Positions 41,508 to 50,923 of a stretch of DNA of 64,000 bases are shown piece after piece. The notes beneath the pieces are model-generated. The model had not been told where the DNA came from, ran no database searches, and worked only from the letters and a program-made list of their open reading frames with translations. This DNA is from an uncultured Gammaproteobacteria bacterium (GTDB lineage Bacteria > Pseudomonadota > Gammaproteobacteria > Steroidobacterales > BM003): assembly GCA_963823435.1 (NCBI GenBank), contig CAWGLN010000001.1:468872-532871 (forward strand), read 5' to 3'. Each line of letters begins with the position of its first letter. Within the stretch, counting starts at the first letter, position 1. A program made the position numbers and the translations under genes.

Positions 41508-42434
41508 CTAGGCCGGAAAGAAGTCTATCGGTTTGGTGGTGGTCACAGTCGCGACATCTTTCTCCTCAAACTGAAACATCTTTATGCGTTGCACCAGTTT
41601 GCGTTGCATTTCTTCATCATCCAGCTCACTTGACAAGATCTCTACCGCAGTCACTGCACCCGAGGGTGCGATGGTTAATTGGAGCACCAGCTTGCCTTGC
41701 AGCGCTGGATTGCGCCGCAGTGCACGATTGTAGAGTGCAAAAATCGAACCCTTGTTTTTGTCGAAGACCAGCTCTATCTCCTCACGGCTGCGCGACGGTG
41801 CACCACCGCCCTTTACAACCTGGGGTCCGGCGTCAGCCATACCGGCAACCGGACTGCTTACCCGTGTGGTGGAACGACCTTCCAGCCCGCCGCCACCTGT
41901 GTTGCGGCTCATACTATCGGTATTGATACCACCGCTGCCCTTGCCAGCGCTTGAGGTAATCAACGACCGCTCAACCCTGGCTGCCTTACCGGCACCCTGG
42001 CTAAGCCCCTGGGTTCCCAGCGCATTGCTTACGGCTGCGCTGTCTCGCAGGTCGGCCAGTTGATCGGCAAAGGGCAACAGACCCGCCTTGGCCGCATTTT
42101 CACGCGCCTTTACGCGGGGCTGTTGAGGCACCGGCTCCGGCTTGACCTTGGCCACCGGCACCACTACGTCGGGTTGCTTAACAACAGGCTCCAGTTTCTG
42201 CTCAATAACCGGTGGTGGCGGTGGTGGCGCCTGCTTCTCCAGCAACAGCTTGGCAAAGCGCGGGGGCAGTTCCTCGACTTGACTGCGATCCACCTCCGGC
42301 ACCGGCAACCATGGCATGACGAGACAGAAAGCCAGTACGGCCAGCGCAAACTGTTTTAGCAGTTTCCGAAACTGGTCGTCCTGCTCCTTAGACATCTCCC
42401 AGGGGAGCTGATAGGTCCGATATGTGACAATCAC
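41508..42434 (-). CDS. tonB: TonB-like energy transducer with an AgmX/PglI-type C-terminal domain
   Basis: It has an N-terminal anchor (LLKQFALAVLAFCLVMPWLP) and a Pro-rich spacer (QAPPPPPPVIEQKLEPVVKQP). The C-terminus is IFALYNRALRRNPALQGKLVLQLTIAPSGAVTAVEILSSELDDEEMQRKLVQRIKMFQF. It is the last gene of the exbB-exbD-exbD operon. Confidence 0.85.
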   Translation of the reverse strand: MIVTYRTYQLPWEMSKEQDDQFRKLLKQFALAVLAFCLVMPWLPVPEVDRSQVEELPPRFAKLLLEKQAPPPPPPVIEQKLEPVVKQPDVVVPVAKVKPEPVPQQPRVKARENAAKAGLLPFADQLADLRDSAAVSNALGTQGLSQGAGKAARVERSLITSSAGKGSGGINTDSMSRNTGGGGLEGRSTTRVSSPVAGMADAGPQVVKGGGAPSRSREEIELVFDKNKGSIFALYNRALRRNPALQGKLVLQLTIAPSGAVTAVEILSSELDDEEMQRKLVQRIKMFQFEEKDVATVTTTKPIDFFPA

Positions 42435-42464
42435 TATTGCTACACCTTCTTCATATGATCCGGA

Positions 42465-42992
42465 TCACCGGCCCGTTACCTTGGCCATAACCTGACCTGG
42501 TTCCGGAGCGGCCTGGGTAACAGCCAGGGATATTTTCCCGTACTGTGCCGCCGTACAGCTCGCCATAATTTTCTTGAGCAAACTGTAGGGCAATTCGCGG
42601 TCACCCATGATGGTGACTTCGCGGTTCTCGACATCGGCTTCGTCGTTCTTGCGCCGCATTCTCTGGGTCTGCAGACGCAACTCGTTCTCAAGCTCGGCGA
42701 TAACGACCTGCTCCTGGCGCATCACGTCCTTCACCTCGGCGACCAGCCGTCCCTGCACCAGTACCTGATCGGCAGTCACCATAATCACGACGTTCTCACG
42801 CGCCCTTTCCTCTGCATAGGATTCGGGCAACTGGAGGTCTTTCGCATTCGGCAGTACTTCCACGTCCTGCGAGTTGACCAGCAGAAAGAACACCAGGATT
42901 GTGAAGATATCCATGAGCGAAATCAGGTTGAGCCCTCCAACACTGCGACGCTTGTGATGCTTTTCCATGCGCTTGGCTTTACGAGATTTCAT
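42465..42992 (-). CDS. exbD: ExbD/TolR-family protein
   Basis: It reads RRSVGGLNLISLMDIFTILVFFLLV, the ExbD N-terminal TM signature. 175 aa. Confidence 0.88.
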   Translation of the reverse strand: MKSRKAKRMEKHHKRRSVGGLNLISLMDIFTILVFFLLVNSQDVEVLPNAKDLQLPESYAEERARENVVIMVTADQVLVQGRLVAEVKDVMRQEQVVIAELENELRLQTQRMRRKNDEADVENREVTIMGDRELPYSLLKKIMASCTAAQYGKISLAVTQAAPEPGQVMAKVTGR

Positions 42993-42995
42993 CGT

Positions 42996-43499
42996 TCACC
43001 TTCCCTGCGCCAGTAAGGGCGCATCCCCGATTGAAATCTCGGGGAACAACTCGGCCCGGGAGAAATTTCCGGGCTCCTCGACACGGTAGGTACGTACGGC
43101 ATCCATAACCTGGACCAGCGCCTCATAATCAACGTCCGCCTCCAGCAGCAGAGTTACAGCAAGTTGATCAGGGAAGGTGGCTTTAACACGCTTCAAATAG
43201 GCATTCAGACCGTCCAGGTCATATTTTCCGTCGACCGTGGGCATATGACTTAACACACCCGCGTTACGGTCTCCCACCTCAATAGCGTCACGACGCACAA
43301 TTACCTCAAGCGAAAATTCGGGCCCGGTCTCCTCGACCACTGACTCAGCCGATGGGAGGTTTAGCTCGAGTATCGCCATGCGCGAAAACACCGCAGTAAT
43401 CAGCAGGAACGGCACCAGGATCACCATCAAATTCATAAATGACGTGATGTTGAGCTCTGGCGGCTCGTGCTGCCGCCGCTTTCTCCACCGGCTTCTCAT
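42996..43499 (-). CDS. exbD: ExbD/TolR-family protein (second copy)
   Basis: It reads PELNITSFMNLMVILVPFLLITAVF. 167 aa, with a 4-nt overlap with exbB. Confidence 0.88.
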   Translation of the reverse strand: MRSRWRKRRQHEPPELNITSFMNLMVILVPFLLITAVFSRMAILELNLPSAESVVEETGPEFSLEVIVRRDAIEVGDRNAGVLSHMPTVDGKYDLDGLNAYLKRVKATFPDQLAVTLLLEADVDYEALVQVMDAVRTYRVEEPGNFSRAELFPEISIGDAPLLAQGR

Positions 43500-49845: not shown

Positions 49846-49848
49846 GAA

Positions 49849-50394
49849 TCATTCCCACTCGCGCACAACAAACTCGGGCTGCATTTTCTGCCCACTATCG
49901 GATATGCGCAGCTCTACGAATTTCGAGCCGATGCTCTTGTCGATAAGCAACGTCGCGCCGCGACGATAGTCACGTTCATGCGGCCCCTGGCCGGTAAACA
50001 CAGCCACCAGTTCATGCTCACCGACCTTGAGATTGCCAACAAATAGCTGATGGACGCCGCCACGCTGTAGCGCCTTCAGCTCGCGCTCCGTGTACAGGTA
50101 GTTGCTGACGTTCTTGCCATCAACGCTGAGCTCTACCGAATCCAGTGCAAAGTACTCGCCGACATCCAGCGATACGAAGACCGCCACCTGGGTATTTGAG
50201 GGATACAGGAGCTCTTCTTCGAGCACAAACAGGTCACGGTTCAATTCAAGGACAGACTTCTTGAGAGCCTGCGTCTCCTGGTCAAGCGCAGCCAGTTCGT
50301 TTGCCGAATCGGCCGTACTTGCCAATGATCCTTGTGATGTCACGGCCAACAGCAGAACTACCGCTAGCGCGCCCATTTTCTCTTTCAGCTTCAT
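49849..50394 (-). CDS. Secreted 181-aa protein of unknown function (coiled-coil followed by a beta-rich domain)
   Basis: Signal peptide ALAVVLLLAVTSQGSLA. It then reads ELAALDQETQALKKSVLELNRDLFVLEEELLYP...LSVDGKNVSNYLYTERELKALQRGGVHQLF. Its start is 3 nt from the next gene's stop. Confidence 0.65.
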   Translation of the reverse strand: MKLKEKMGALAVVLLLAVTSQGSLASTADSANELAALDQETQALKKSVLELNRDLFVLEEELLYPSNTQVAVFVSLDVGEYFALDSVELSVDGKNVSNYLYTERELKALQRGGVHQLFVGNLKVGEHELVAVFTGQGPHERDYRRGATLLIDKSIGSKFVELRISDSGQKMQPEFVVREWE

Positions 50395-50419
50395 GTCAAT
50401 CTCTCCAGAGGCGCGACGA

Positions 50420-50923
50420 CTAGTCCGCCAACAGTCTCGCTACTTCGGCGCTGATTTGCGCAGCGCTCTCGCCGCGAAAACCCTTATTAACAAAACGGAC
50501 CACGCCTTCACGATCGATCAGTAAAGTCAGTGGCAAACGGTTCAGGTCGTAAAGCCGGCTCACGGACTGGCCGGTATCAAGCAGAATTGGGAAATTAACC
50601 CCCAGCTCCGCGGCAAGTTCTGCAGCCGTTTCTGAATCTCCATCGATATCGACTCCGATGACGTTAAGCCCGTCGGACCAATAGCGATGATGAAGTTCTT
50701 CGAGGACGGGCATGGCCTCACGACACCTGGCGCAGGACTCGGAGGCAAAATTCAGCAAAACGATTTCGCTACGGTACTCACTCAGTCGCAGGGTTTTTCC
50801 ATCACTGCTGCGGAGGGCAAAGTCAGGTGCCGGCGCATTGACAAAGTCTGAAGACGCAGCCGTGTTCACCGTCAATAAGGCGAACAGCATCGCTATCAGT
50901 ACTTTTACCGGTTTCTTTTGCAT
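50420..50923 (-). CDS. TlpA/ResA-like periplasmic thiol:disulfide oxidoreductase with an atypical CARC motif
   Basis: It has a signal peptide and a thioredoxin-fold pattern: APDFALRSSDGKTLRLSEYRSEIVLLNFASESCARCREAMP...NFPILLD. Confidence 0.78.
   Translation of the reverse strand: MQKKPVKVLIAMLFALLTVNTAASSDFVNAPAPDFALRSSDGKTLRLSEYRSEIVLLNFASESCARCREAMPVLEELHHRYWSDGLNVIGVDIDGDSETAAELAAELGVNFPILLDTGQSVSRLYDLNRLPLTLLIDREGVVRFVNKGFRGESAAQISAEVARLLAD

What the first reader, a model, noticed from the sequence alone, without database searches (positions are those of the whole stretch)
41508..50923. ExbB-ExbD-ExbD plus AgmX/PglI-type TonB embedded in a TPR/coiled-coil operon: an Agl/Glt-like envelope machine of unknown function
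- **Gene content.** Ten co-oriented genes have 0-48 nt spacers or ATGA overlaps. They encode:
  - a TlpA-like oxidoreductase;
  - a secreted 181-aa protein;
  - a 619-aa TPR/coiled-coil protein;
  - a 943-aa TPR protein;
  - a TPR lipoprotein;
  - a small secreted protein;
  - a proton-channel motor (ExbB plus two ExbD);
  - a TonB-like protein.
- **TonB type.** The TonB-like C-terminus (ALYNRALRRNPALQGKLVLQLTIAPSGAVTAVEI...) looks like the AgmX/PglI (GltJ/GltG) type, not the classical siderophore TonB.
- **No receptor.** No TonB-dependent receptor is present.
- **Parallel with Myxococcus.** The combination of a TolQR/ExbBD-like motor, TonB-like proteins and large TPR proteins is the core of the Myxococcus Agl-Glt gliding and Nfs spore-coat machines.
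- **Prior report.** Luciano et al. 2011 (PLoS Genet) reported homologous core clusters outside Myxococcales. As far as I recall, their function is unknown.
Basis: partly seen in the sequence, partly recalled or inferred. Interest (0 to 1): 0.75.

Follow-up and report, generated by a model that had tools for sequence, protein, structure and literature searches.

The report
Riboswitch-controlled Agl-Glt core envelope machine
This ten-gene operon encodes a proton-driven membrane motor, a TonB-like arm and large scaffold proteins. It matches the already described "core complex" from which the Myxococcus gliding and spore-coat machines evolved. Its function is still unknown, but here it sits behind a c-di-GMP riboswitch, which links it to surface-attached life.

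Summary
**Observation.** It is confirmed.

**Identity.** Gene order and sizes match the Agl/Glt "core complex" of Luciano et al. 2011 (gltC-gltD-gltE-small gene-aglR-aglQ-aglS-gltG), reported in Gammaproteobacteria with unknown function.

**Direct tests of membership.**
- The TolQ-like protein is 41% identical (158 bits) to an Anaeromyxobacteraceae AglR, against 36 bits to E. coli TolQ.
- The two TolR-like proteins map one-to-one onto AglQ and AglS.
- The TonB-like C-terminus passes NCBIfam's AgmX/PglI domain model.
- The three TPR proteins showed no detectable similarity to a Bdellovibrionota Glt cluster. Their assignment therefore rests on synteny, size and the 2011 paper.

**New here.**
1. 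The conserved unit has ten genes in 80 species-level genomes. It includes a TlpA-like protein and a highly conserved 181-aa helix plus beta-sandwich protein.
2. A c-di-GMP-I-class riboswitch (51012-51108) sits directly 5' of the operon in the window and in 28 related loci.
3. The AglQ-like protein lacks the transmembrane Asp.
4. The TonB-like helix lacks the TonB/TolA His.

**Verdict.** This is a new member of a known kind. Function is still unknown, and the riboswitch gives a new regulatory handle.

The parts
51219..51247 (-). sigma-70-like promoter hexamers (TTGGGA-17-CATAAT), a weak consensus match only
   Evidence: It is one of only 2 promoter-like sites in 10.4 kb, and it lies just 5' of the riboswitch.
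51012..51108 (-). c-di-GMP-I-class (GEMM-I) riboswitch aptamer, 88 nt 5' of the first gene of the operon
   Evidence: - Rfam RF03167 scores 66.5 bits (gathering score 59), E 3.5e-14.
- The element is at the same position in 28 related loci.
- Eight of those loci were checked with Rfam and score as canonical RF01051 at 58-81 bits.
50420..50923 (-). TlpA/ResA-like periplasmic thioredoxin-fold protein (CARC motif), first gene of the unit
   Evidence: - Pfam AhpC-TSA 85.7 bits; NCBIfam ResA subfamily 94 bits, below its cut-off.
- It is adjacent to the 181-aa gene in 71 loci.
- The CxxC motif is kept in 57 of 71 orthologues.
49849..50394 (-). 'Y181': secreted protein with a long N-terminal helix and an 8-strand beta-sandwich; the most conserved non-motor protein of the cluster
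   Evidence: - No Pfam or NCBIfam family matches.
- Median identity to orthologues is 63%.
- AF2 model has pLDDT 77. Foldseek against PDB gives only generic Ig/FN3-like folds.
- At least 7995 homologues were found. NCBI names some of them 'AraC family transcriptional regulator'.
47986..49845 (-). GltC-position protein: signal peptide, N-terminal TPR half, helical C-terminal half
   Evidence: - TPR hits.
- Position and size match the MXAN_2541 homologues in Luciano Table S3.
- No hit to NF033756 GltC, even at E<=10.
45143..47974 (-). GltD-position protein: 943-aa periplasmic TPR scaffold with CpoB/YbgF- and BamD-like repeats
   Evidence: -.
- More than 500 homologues, all about 930-965 aa.
- At least 538 species-level genomes carry one.
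44527..45162 (-). GltE-position TPR outer-membrane lipoprotein (lipobox VTAGC)
44195..44527 (-). 'X110': small secreted protein with invariant ELPKVLYIVPWK strand motif and a C-terminal helix; it sits where gltF sits in Anaeromyxobacter and is the 'additional gene' of the core complex
   Evidence: - No family matches.
- At least 6524 homologues.
- AF2 model is mostly disordered (pLDDT 59) with a helix at 87-108.
- Position.
43496..44146 (-). AglR-like TolQ/ExbB-family stator subunit (three predicted TM helices, not computed here)
   Evidence: - Pfam MotA_ExbB 104.7 bits.
- Below the TolQ and ExbB equivalog cut-offs.
- 41% identity and 158 bits to Anaeromyxobacteraceae AglR.
42996..43499 (-). 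AglQ-like TolR/ExbD-family protein; the transmembrane Asp is replaced by Asn23
   Evidence: - Pfam ExbD.
- The family HMM prefers the first ExbD of delta clusters: 63-66 bits against 25-32 bits.
- Position 23 is Asn in 38 and Asp in 30 of 68 orthologues.
42465..42992 (-). AglS-like TolR/ExbD-family protein; transmembrane Asp28 is invariant
   Evidence: - Pfam ExbD.
- The family HMM prefers the second ExbD: 114 and 58 bits against 15-18 bits.
- Asp is present in 67 of 67 orthologues.
41508..42434 (-). GltG-like TonB-type transducer: cytoplasmic YRxY(E/D)LPW motif, one TM helix without His, poly-Pro, low-complexity linker, AgmX/PglI-type C-terminal domain
   Evidence: - NF033768 69.2 bits (cut-off 40). 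The GltG and GltJ models match over the C-terminus only.
- TM helix analysis.
- hhalign to Bacteriovoracaceae GltG C-terminal domain gives E 2e-4.
38030..39025 (-). second, frameshifted copy of the GltG-like gene, including the last ~13 codons of the AglS-like gene
   Evidence: - 83% nt identity and 92% aa identity once one extra A at 38239 is removed.
- 115 synonymous-only against 24 amino-acid-changing codon differences.
- Absent from the 97%-identical relative L084.

Best explanation
**What it is.** The locus is a riboswitch-controlled ten-gene operon. It encodes a trans-envelope, proton-motive-force-driven force-transduction machine of the Agl/Glt 'core complex' type.

**Shown here.**
- An AglR-like TolQ-family protein and two different TolR-family proteins (AglQ-like and AglS-like) are orthologous to the stator of the Myxococcus-type gliding and spore-coat motor.
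- A single-pass TonB-like protein carries the AgmX/PglI (GltG/GltJ) type C-terminal domain.
- These genes are strictly linked to three secreted TPR proteins (one of them a lipoprotein), two small secreted proteins and a TlpA-like protein.
- A c-di-GMP-I-class aptamer sits 5' of the first gene.

**Inferred mechanism.**
- The inferences draw on solved 5:2 TolQR/ExbBD stators and on the 2025 AlphaFold model of Agl-Glt (PMC11761067).
- Five AglR-like subunits surround an AglQ/AglS-like heterodimer. Only AglS-like Asp28 is protonatable in this organism.
- Proton flow moves the GltG-like transducer. Its proline-rich and disordered linker crosses the peptidoglycan.
- Its TonB-type C-terminal domain grips the 943-aa GltD-like scaffold.
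- That scaffold is tied to the outer membrane through the GltE-like lipoprotein and the GltC-like protein.
- X110 may bridge the C-terminal domain and the GltC-like protein by beta-strand addition, as proposed for GltF.

**Likely role.** The output is not TonB-dependent import and not gliding by itself. Most likely the machine moves, positions or exposes an outer-membrane or surface cargo (an adhesin or a polymer) when c-di-GMP signals a surface-attached state. The cargo is unknown.
For: **Match to the published core complex.** Gene order and sizes match Table S3 of PMC3169522.

**Motor orthology.**
- AglR-like scores 158 and 155 bits (41% and 40% identity) against Anaeromyxobacteraceae and Bacteriovoracaceae AglR. 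It scores 36 and 31 bits against E. coli TolQ and ExbB.
- The Anaeromyxobacteraceae locus L085 is a stand-alone 230/163/190-aa triplet. It has the same layout as Adeh_4310-4308.
- L087 is a bona fide Glt cluster: NF033756 GltC 99 bits and NF033760 GltG 125 bits, both below their equivalog cut-offs (450 and 650), plus an FHA domain and an OMP_myx_plus barrel.
- The AglQ and AglS family HMMs each prefer the corresponding delta paralogue.

**Transducer.** NF033768 scores 69.2 bits against a cut-off of 40.

**Conservation.** The ten-gene order is conserved in 80 loci. At least 538 species-level genomes carry the marker protein.

**Riboswitch.**
- Rfam score is above the gathering threshold in the window.
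- Thirteen loci, the window included, were checked with Rfam. Twelve score above a family's gathering score, and L004 has no match.
- My covariance model gave 29 hits at E <= 2e-4 in 1.64 Mb, all directly 5' of the TlpA-like gene on the operon strand.

**Exclusions.** No TonB-dependent receptor domain in the window. No anti-phage family beyond a faint ZorA hit.
Against: - The TPR proteins show no significant similarity to the GltC, GltD or GltE counterparts of a Bacteriovoracaceae cluster. HMM scores are <=10 bits. hhalign gives P 0.056 and 0.015, with probability 1-3%.
- The window's GltC-like protein does not hit NCBIfam GltC.
- The GltG-like protein lacks the FHA domains of GltG. Only its C-terminal domain is alignable.
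- No outer-membrane barrel of the GltA/B/H kind is part of the conserved unit, so the outer-membrane end of the machine is undefined.
- No cargo gene is conserved next to the cluster.
- The riboswitch is absent from 44 loci with enough upstream sequence, mostly Woeseiaceae.
- All protein-protein contacts are transferred from a model of a distant system. No multimer prediction could be run.
Confidence: 0.72

Rival explanations
1. The locus is an ordinary extra TonB system (ExbB-ExbD-ExbD-TonB, as in Xanthomonas). It would energise TonB-dependent receptors encoded elsewhere, and the TPR genes would be accessory.
For: - TIGR01352 tonB_Cterm is just passed (27.3 bits against a cut-off of 27.1), and Pfam TonB_C gives a weak hit of 19.7 bits.
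- The ExbB and ExbD Pfam domains are present.
- The rest of the genome is unseen, so receptors may exist elsewhere.
Against: - ExbB, ExbD and TonB equivalog models are all far below their cut-offs (42 against 206; 28 against 123).
- The best C-terminal domain model is AgmX/PglI.
- The transmembrane helix has no His in 64 of 64 orthologues. TonB and TolA need the SHLS-motif His (PMC12204202).
- No receptor is found in the window or as a conserved neighbour in 80 loci.
- Linkage to seven non-Ton genes is strict.
- The stator clusters with AglR, not with ExbB.
Confidence: 0.07
2. The locus is a Tol-Pal-like paralogue. It would use the motor, a TolA-like arm and CpoB/YbgF-like TPR proteins to tether or constrict the outer membrane, for envelope integrity or division, rather than to move a cargo.
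For: - TolQ is the best named NCBIfam hit for the stator, at 64.5 bits.
- The 943-aa protein carries four YbgF/CpoB-like stretches (88.6 bits, cut-off 90.1) and BamD-like repeats.
- JGI names these proteins 'TolA-binding protein'.
- The literature treats Agl-Glt as Tol-like (PMC5349195).
Against: - No TolB or Pal homologue is in the conserved unit.
- TolQ and TolR equivalog cut-offs are missed by a wide margin.
- The TolA-type His is absent.
- Control by a c-di-GMP riboswitch fits a conditional, lifestyle-linked function better than a housekeeping one.
Confidence: 0.13
3. The locus is a motor for handling a surface polysaccharide, analogous to Agl-Nfs. It would spread or assemble an exported polymer on the cell surface.
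For: - Agl-Nfs moves the spore-coat polymer (PMC3858216).
- c-di-GMP commonly controls matrix polysaccharides (general knowledge).
- In the distant relative L091, an AglR-AglQ-AglS-GltG-like module is immediately followed by Wza, Wzc, Wzx and glycosyltransferase genes.
Against: - No polysaccharide gene is a conserved neighbour of the ten-gene unit in 80 loci.
- L091 is a single locus, its AglR is only 36% identical, and it has no TPR genes.
- This is compatible with the main explanation. It is a guess at the cargo rather than a different machine.
Confidence: 0.2
4. The locus is a complete gliding-motility machine.
For: It is homologous to the Agl motor and to the GltG C-terminal domain.
Against: - The Group A genes required for gliding (GltA/B/H/K, GltI, GltJ, GltF, CglB) are absent from the cluster.
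- The GltG-like protein has no cytoplasmic FHA domain to connect to a cytoskeletal platform.
- Luciano et al. argue that the core alone is not sufficient.
Confidence: 0.03

Closest known systems
Agl/Glt 'core complex' of Gammaproteobacteria, Methylibium and Geobacter (Luciano et al. 2011, PLoS Genet, PMC3169522)
   Same: - Same gene order: gltC-gltD-gltE-small extra gene-aglR-aglQ-aglS-gltG.
- Same protein sizes.
- Single cluster, function unknown.
   Different: - This instance is in an uncultured gammaproteobacterium. Its nearest GTDB relatives for this cluster are Chromatiales, Woeseiaceae and Steroidobacterales.
- The conserved unit here has two more genes (TlpA-like and Y181).
- It is preceded by a c-di-GMP-I riboswitch, and its AglQ-like protein has Asn in place of the transmembrane Asp.
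- Whether these features also hold for the 2011 genomes could not be checked.
Myxococcus xanthus Agl-Glt gliding machine
   Same: - The AglRQS-type stator is orthologous.
- The transducer is TonB-like with an AgmX/PglI C-terminal domain.
- Large periplasmic TPR proteins are present, and a small protein sits after gltE (the GltF position).
   Different: - No GltA/B/H/K outer-membrane module, CglB adhesin, GltI, GltJ or AglZ.
- The GltG-like protein is 308 aa without FHA domains, against 650 aa.
- The GltD-like protein is 943 aa and not a lipoprotein.
- TPR homology was not detectable here.
Myxococcus Agl-Nfs spore-coat assembly machine
   Same: It uses the same motor class to drive a non-motility surface process, which shows that such machines can move polymers.
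   Different: No Nfs-specific outer-membrane proteins and no linked polysaccharide genes are found in the ten-gene unit.
Tol-Pal system
   Same: - A 5:2-type TolQR-like stator.
- A single-pass transducer with a proline-rich spacer.
- CpoB/YbgF-like TPR repeats.
   Different: - No TolB or Pal.
- No SHLS-motif His.
- Two different TolR paralogues.
- Equivalog cut-offs are not met.
ExbB-ExbD-TonB
   Same: It shares the domain families MotA_ExbB and ExbD, and a TonB-type C-terminal fold.
   Different: - No receptor is linked.
- The transducer helix lacks the His.
- The C-terminal domain belongs to the AgmX/PglI subfamily.
- The stator groups with AglR.
c-di-GMP-I (GEMM-I) riboswitch, Rfam RF01051 / RF03167
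   Same: - The aptamer scores above the gathering threshold.
- It lies in a 5' leader on the operon strand.
   Different: - The downstream operon (the Agl/Glt core complex) is not among the targets I know of or could find in the searchable literature.
- The window copy scores best with the 'GGC' variant model. However, at ACGCAAAGC and AGCGGGG it carries the letters of its canonical relatives.

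Membership tests
Agl/Glt core complex (Luciano 2011) | Single cluster with the order gltC-gltD-gltE-(extra small gene)-aglR-aglQ-aglS-gltG and the matching sizes | tested here: met
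   One search compared with Table S3. Window sizes are 619/943/211/110/216/167/175/308.
Agl/Glt core complex (Luciano 2011) | The stator A subunit belongs to the AglR clade, not to TolQ or ExbB | tested here: met
   - 158 and 155 bits to Anaeromyxobacteraceae and Bacteriovoracaceae AglR.
- 36 and 31 bits to E. coli TolQ and ExbB.
- Only 178 representative clusters reach E<=1e-30.
- No full tree was built.
Agl/Glt core complex (Luciano 2011) | Two distinct TolR-like paralogues orthologous to AglQ and AglS | tested here: met
   - Family HMMs: AglQ-like scores 63-66 bits on the first ExbD against 25-32 bits on the second.
- AglS-like scores 114 and 58 bits on the second ExbD against 15-18 bits on the first.
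- The two window proteins share only the transmembrane segment.
Agl/Glt core complex (Luciano 2011) | GltG-type single-pass protein with a proline-rich spacer and an AgmX/PglI C-terminal domain | tested here: met
   - NF033768 69.2 bits (cut-off 40).
- The GltG model gives E 3e-9 and the GltJ model E 3e-7, over the C-terminus only.
- hhalign gives E 2e-4.
Agl/Glt core complex (Luciano 2011) | TPR proteins homologous to GltC, GltD and GltE | tested here: inconclusive
   - Only generic TPR similarity is seen (the GltE model scores 26.9 bits, no better than the Tgl or PilW models).
- No NF033756 GltC hit.
- HMM and hhalign comparisons with the L087 counterparts are not significant.
- M. xanthus sequences were not obtainable.
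Myxococcus-type gliding machine (full Agl-Glt) | Group A components: GltA/B/H/K outer-membrane module, GltI, GltJ, GltF, CglB, and FHA domains in GltG | tested here: not met
   - None of these is among the ten genes or their conserved neighbours.
- The GltG-like protein is 308 aa with no FHA hit.
- The two OMP_b-brl genes 3.3 kb upstream are linked in only 6 of 80 loci.
ExbB-ExbD-TonB system | Equivalog-level match of ExbB, ExbD and TonB | tested here: not met
   - ExbB 42.2 bits against 206.
- ExbD 28.3 bits against 123.
- tonB_Cterm is just at its cut-off (27.3 against 27.1).
- Pfam TonB_C 19.7 bits against 24.6.
ExbB-ExbD-TonB system | Conserved His (SHLS motif) in the transducer transmembrane helix | tested here: not met
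   0 of 64 orthologues have His in the helix. The motif is as described in PMC12204202.
ExbB-ExbD-TonB system | Functional coupling to TonB-dependent receptors | not testable with these tools
   No receptor is linked in the window or in 80 loci. The rest of the genome is unseen.
Tol-Pal system | TolQ, TolR and TolA together with TolB and Pal | tested here: not met
   - TolQ 64.5 bits against 221.
- TolR 26-29 bits against 127.
- No TolB or Pal domains in the unit.
c-di-GMP-I riboswitch (Rfam clan CL00126) | Covariance-model score at or above the gathering threshold, in a 5' leader | tested here: met
   - RF03167 66.5 bits against 59.
- It lies 88 nt 5' of the start codon.
- Relatives score RF01051 58-81 bits against 35.
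c-di-GMP-I riboswitch (Rfam clan CL00126) | Binds c-di-GMP and switches expression | not testable with these tools
   No clear terminator or anti-terminator was seen in the 88-nt platform.
Zorya or other anti-phage 5:2 motors | Match to the ZorA and ZorB models and their partner genes | tested here: not met
   Only an 18-bit ZorA hit over the shared MotA domain. The other nine proteins give nothing.

The most novel reading that the evidence does not exclude
The ten-gene, c-di-GMP-riboswitch-controlled unit may be a distinct and very widespread proton-driven envelope machine of sediment and soil Gammaproteobacteria. It comprises TlpA-like, Y181, three TPR proteins, X110, AglRQS-like and GltG-like.
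- **Spread.** At least 538 species-level genomes carry it, and thousands of metagenomic homologues exist.
- **Proposed job.** It would deploy or move an outer-membrane or surface cargo (an adhesin or a matrix polymer) on the switch to attached life.
- **Evolutionary meaning.** It would be the living ancestral state of the Myxococcus gliding and spore-coat machines.
- **Proposed new parts.** X110 would act as a GltF-like, TonB-box-like adaptor. Y181 would be an unrecognised core subunit.
Probability: 0.35. Interest if true: 0.75.

Novelty: new member of a known kind. Interest (0 to 1): 0.5.

Why it matters
- **Open question.** The function of the Agl/Glt core complex has been open since 2011. 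It bears on how a Tol/Ton-like motor was turned into a gliding machine and a spore-coat machine.
- **Abundance.** The cluster is abundant in Woeseiaceae, Steroidobacterales and Chromatiales-like bacteria, which dominate many sediments.
- **New leads, all testable.**
  - A c-di-GMP riboswitch in front of the operon. It is also present in the cultured Peristeroidobacter agariperforans KA5-B, locus L055.
  - Two further conserved subunits (TlpA-like and Y181).
  - A stator in which only one of the two TolR-like proteins keeps the proton-binding Asp.
  - A transducer that lacks the TonB/TolA histidine.
- **Limit.** None of this establishes the function.

Tried and rejected
- **M. xanthus sequences.** I could not obtain M. 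xanthus Glt or Agl sequences. The one genome-contig scan returned only gammaproteobacterial loci, and the 2025 structural paper has no held supplements.
  - As a workaround I used the representative search with the AglR-like protein, then cluster naming and contig look-ups.
  - That gave Anaeromyxobacteraceae and Bacteriovoracaceae loci.
- **Searches that gave nothing useful.**
  - tblastn of the 943-aa protein against plasmids: no match.
  - Cluster-member names for ten GltD-like proteins: uninformative.
  - PDB sequence searches: only generic TPR, TolQ and ExbB hits, and nothing for the TonB-like or AglS-like proteins.
- **Fold searches.**
  - Foldseek of Y181 gave only generic beta-sandwiches.
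  - The X110 model was too poor to search.
- **Ideas checked and dropped.**
  - An ApbE substrate inside the cluster: no [ST]GA[ST] flavinylation motif in any of the proteins.
  - A TlpA substrate inside the cluster: no conserved Cys pairs.
  - Anti-phage Zorya.
- **Literature.** Searches by locus tag and by 'adventurous gliding motility protein' plus Gammaproteobacteria found nothing. The Weinberg 2017 paper on riboswitch variants is not held.
- **Short contigs.** Two contig look-ups returned contigs too short to use.

Full report
**1. Observation**

The ORF listing shows ten minus-strand ORFs from 50923 down to 41508, with spacers of 48 nt or less or short overlaps. Family scans give the following:
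- a ResA/TlpA-like thioredoxin-fold protein (CARC motif);
- a 181-aa protein with no family ('Y181');
- a 619-aa protein with TPR repeats in its N-terminal half;
- a 943-aa TPR protein with four YbgF/CpoB-like stretches and BamD-like repeats;
- a 211-aa TPR lipoprotein (lipobox VTAGC);
- a 110-aa protein with no family ('X110');
- one MotA_ExbB protein and two ExbD-family proteins;
- a 308-aa protein whose C-terminus passes NCBIfam NF033768 'AgmX/PglI C-terminal domain' (69.2 bits, cut-off 40).

The 308-aa protein matches the GltG and GltJ equivalog models only over that C-terminal domain. None of the large ORFs of the window carries a TonB-dependent-receptor domain.

**2. What it is**

*Match to the published core complex.* Luciano et al. 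2011 (PMC3169522) defined a 'core complex': gltC, gltD, gltE, aglR, aglQ, aglS and gltG, plus one extra gene without a myxobacterial homologue. It is clustered in several Gammaproteobacteria, in Methylibium and in Geobacter.

In their Table S3 the order and sizes are almost those of the window, which reads 308/175/167/216/110/211/943/619:
- Marinobacter: 321/162/176/221/[gap]/162/939/550
- Cellvibrio: 173/181/231/[gap]/244/964/660 (its GltG-like row falls in a part of Table S3 that I did not read)
- Methylibium: 634/941/243/[gap]/217/170

The one-gene gap in the locus tags corresponds to X110. The function of the core complex was called unknown in 2011, 2013 and 2020. Later searches found nothing more.

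*Direct tests on the motor.* A HMMER search of 1.84 billion representatives with the AglR-like protein found only 178 clusters at E<=1e-30.
- Two of those clusters could be named: Anaeromyxobacteraceae and Bacteriovoracaceae.
- The Anaeromyxobacteraceae loci hold a stand-alone MotA_ExbB-ExbD-ExbD triplet of 230/163/190 aa. This is the same layout as aglR/Q/S of Anaeromyxobacter in Table S3 (224/162/194).
- The Bacteriovoracaceae locus L087 is a Glt-type cluster:
  - It has an OMP_myx_plus barrel and a GltC that hits NF033756 at 99 bits.
  - Its FHA-bearing GltG hits NF033760 at 125 bits and NF033768 at 63.5 bits.
  - The GltC and GltG scores are below those models' equivalog cut-offs (450 and 650).
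- The window's AglR-like protein is 41% and 40% identical to these two AglR proteins (158 and 155 bits). It scores 36 and 31 bits against E. coli TolQ and ExbB.
- HMMs built from 80 orthologous loci show one-to-one orthology of both TolR-like proteins. AglQ-like prefers the first ExbD (63-66 against 25-32 bits). AglS-like prefers the second (114 and 58 against 15-18 bits).

*Direct tests on the TPR proteins.* The gamma-family HMMs for the GltC-, GltD- and GltE-position proteins do not detect the L087 counterparts (<=10 bits).
- hhalign gives a collinear but non-significant alignment for GltD: 493 columns, P 0.056.
- For GltC it finds nothing beyond one TPR unit.
- The window's 619-aa protein does not hit NF033756 even at E<=10.

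Membership is therefore shown for the motor and for the TonB-type C-terminal domain. For the TPR scaffold it rests on synteny, sizes and the 2011 phylogenies.

**3. Conservation and new anatomy**

- The best 80 loci are Woeseiaceae, Steroidobacteraceae or Steroidobacterales and Chromatiales or Chromatiaceae MAGs, plus the cultured Peristeroidobacter agariperforans KA5-B.
- The best hit is only 53% identical, so the window's organism has no close species representative.
- The closest contigs are L084 (about 97% nt), L081 (86% aa) and L083 (73% aa).

*The ten-gene unit.* In every locus that is long enough, the same ten genes occur in the same order. Median identity to the window is:

| Protein | Median identity (%) |
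|---|---|
| AglR | 69 |
| Y181 | 63 |
| X110 | 59 |
| AglQ | 53 |
| AglS | 52 |
| GltG | 50 |
| GltD | 45 |
| TlpA | 44 |
| GltC | 43 |
| GltE | 39 |

The two genes beyond the published core, TlpA-like and Y181, belong to the unit in these lineages. Y181 is its best-conserved non-motor protein.

*Y181 and X110.*
- Y181 is predicted (pLDDT 77) as a signal peptide, a 35-residue helix and an eight-strand beta-sandwich. It has only generic structural neighbours. NCBI mislabels some members as 'AraC family transcriptional regulator'.
- X110 is predicted to be mostly disordered with a C-terminal helix. It carries an invariant ELPKVLYIVPWK segment.
- X110 sits after the gltE-position gene, exactly where the 89-aa gltF sits in Anaeromyxobacter.
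- GltF is described as mostly disordered. It is proposed to add a beta-strand to the GltG C-terminal domain and to insert a helix into GltC (PMC11761067).

*Stator and transducer.*
- AglS-like Asp28 is invariant in the transmembrane helix (67 of 67).
- The equivalent position of AglQ-like is Asn in the window and in 37 other orthologues, and Asp in 30. The Anaeromyxobacteraceae and Bacteriovoracaceae AglQ keep Asp.
- The GltG-like helix has no His in 64 of 64 sequences. It has an invariant cytoplasmic YRxY(E/D)LPW motif.
- TonB and TolA depend on the SHLS-motif His (PMC12204202).

*Cysteines.*
- There are no conserved Cys pairs in the periplasmic proteins.
- The single Cys in AglS-like is kept in 64 of 67 orthologues. 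The single Cys in the GltG-like C-terminal domain is kept in 42 of 64, and the window has Val there.
- Their presence co-varies with retention of the TlpA CxxC, but this reflects only one or two evolutionary events.

**4. Riboswitch**

*In the window.* Rfam finds a c-di-GMP-I-class aptamer at 51012-51108 on the operon strand. It lies 88 nt upstream of the TlpA-like start, in the 360-nt gap after apbE (RF03167, 66.5 bits against a gathering score of 59). A promoter-like site lies just upstream.

*In related loci.*
- The three closest relatives have the same element (66-68 bits).
- Eight more distant loci have a canonical RF01051 aptamer at the same place (58-81 bits against 35). They include Peristeroidobacter agariperforans.
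- I built a covariance model from six copies and searched 87 sources (1.64 Mb). It gave 29 hits at E<=2e-4.
- All 29 are directly 5' of the TlpA-like gene on the operon strand, and none lies elsewhere.
- Forty-four loci with enough upstream sequence lack the element. They are mostly Woeseiaceae, where apbE abuts the TlpA-like gene.

*Variant or canonical.* In alignment A6, the window copy carries the same letters as its canonical relatives at ACGCAAAGC and AGCGGGG. These are the places where the RF03167 consensus differs. I therefore expect c-di-GMP to be the ligand. This is not shown.

*Consequences.* The expression platform could not be read. The element makes the TlpA-like gene the first gene of the regulated unit. 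It ties the machine to c-di-GMP signalling. I found no paper that reports this link.

**5. Mechanism**

*Shown.* The parts list, the orthology of the motor, the type of the C-terminal domain, the strict linkage of the genes and the riboswitch.

*Inferred from solved TolQR/ExbBD stators and from the AlphaFold model of Agl-Glt.*
- An AglR-like pentamer surrounds an AglQ/AglS-like heterodimer. In this organism it has one protonatable Asp.
- The stator drives the GltG-like transducer. Its linker crosses the peptidoglycan.
- Its C-terminal domain binds the GltD-like scaffold.
- That scaffold is held at the outer membrane by the GltE-like lipoprotein and the GltC-like protein.
- X110 may act as a GltF-like adaptor.
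- Y181 and the TlpA-like protein have no assigned role.

*Output.* It is unlikely to be receptor-mediated import or gliding. A conditional, surface-linked task fits the riboswitch best, such as moving an adhesin or a polymer. One distant locus, L091, places an AglRQS-GltG-like module directly before the polysaccharide-export genes wza, wzc and wzx. This hints at a polymer cargo for part of the wider family, but it is a single case.

**6. Verdict**

It is a new member of a known kind whose function is still unknown. The added value lies in the ten-gene unit, the riboswitch, and the unusual stator and transducer residues. I rate interest as moderate (0.5).

Noticed in passing
window 32274-39012: - A segment of about 6.7 kb is absent from the 97%-identical relative L084 and from L081.
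- It is bounded by diverged second copies of two genes: the GltG-like gene (38030-39025, 83% nt identity, one extra A at 38239 causing a frameshift) and the DUF3014 gene (32621-33601, 80% nt identity).
- Between them lie two LssY_C proteins and two ORFs with no family.
- The GltG-like copy evolved under purifying selection (115 synonymous-only against 24 amino-acid-changing codon differences). It was therefore a working second TonB-like paralogue until recently, or the frameshift is a sequencing error.
   Followed up: partly
window 51283-58362 (-): - Upstream on the same strand lie ApbE, DUF3570, a likely DUF4266 (about 53478-53705), a second canonical TlpA (WCGPC), two small OMP_b-brl proteins (one with an SH3 domain) and a 924-aa HZS_alpha/PD40 protein.
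- ApbE is the upstream neighbour in 39 of 80 loci. The remaining genes are linked in only 4-7 loci.
- No flavinylation motif is present in the cluster proteins.
   Followed up: partly
window 42996-43499 (-), residue 23: The AglQ-like protein has Asn where TolR, ExbD and delta AglQ have the proton-binding Asp. Among 68 orthologues the position is Asn in 38 and Asp in 30. The AglS-like Asp is invariant.
   Followed up: partly
window 50420-50923 (-) and orthologues in L046-L076: - The TlpA-like CxxC motif is lost (W-A-G-D-S) in a Steroidobacteraceae clade of 13-14 loci.
- In all of those loci the single Cys of the GltG-like C-terminal domain is also absent.
- Where the CxxC is kept, 38 of 44 loci have that Cys.
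- The pattern is phylogenetically confounded.
   Followed up: partly
L091:7250-17900 (GCA_041746255.1): A distant AglR-AglQ-AglS-GltG-like module (AglR 36% identical) is immediately followed by Wza (Poly_export/SLBB), Wzc-like, Wzx-like and glycosyltransferase genes. No TPR genes are present.
   Followed up: partly
L090:6002-12598: - This is a reduced relative: one 1218-aa GltD-like protein, a 114-aa gene, AglR, AglQ, AglS and a GltG-like gene.
- The GltD-like protein scores 325 bits to the GltD HMM and has a 360-aa N-terminal extension.
- There are no separate GltC- or GltE-like genes, no Y181 and no TlpA.
   Followed up: partly
window 49849-50394 (-): Homologues of the 181-aa secreted protein are named 'AraC family transcriptional regulator' in NCBI MAG annotations. 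The predicted structure is a helix plus a beta-sandwich, with no HTH domain, so this looks like a mis-annotation.
   Followed up: yes
window 39114-41500: Downstream on the opposite strand lie DsrE_2, then DUF3014. By analogy with L081 and L084, a TusA gene probably lies next to the GltG-like gene. These neighbours are conserved only in the closest relatives.
   Followed up: no
window 1-20000: Type VI secretion genes are present: a VipB/TssC-like gene at 2157-3611, ClpV-like at 8349-11084 and TssF at 12127-14004.
   Followed up: no
L084:10381-11534: In the 1.07-Mb ENA contig of the near-identical relative, the AglR-like and AglQ-like genes are called in fragments (154 aa; 65 + 100 aa). These are probably assembly indels.
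   Followed up: no
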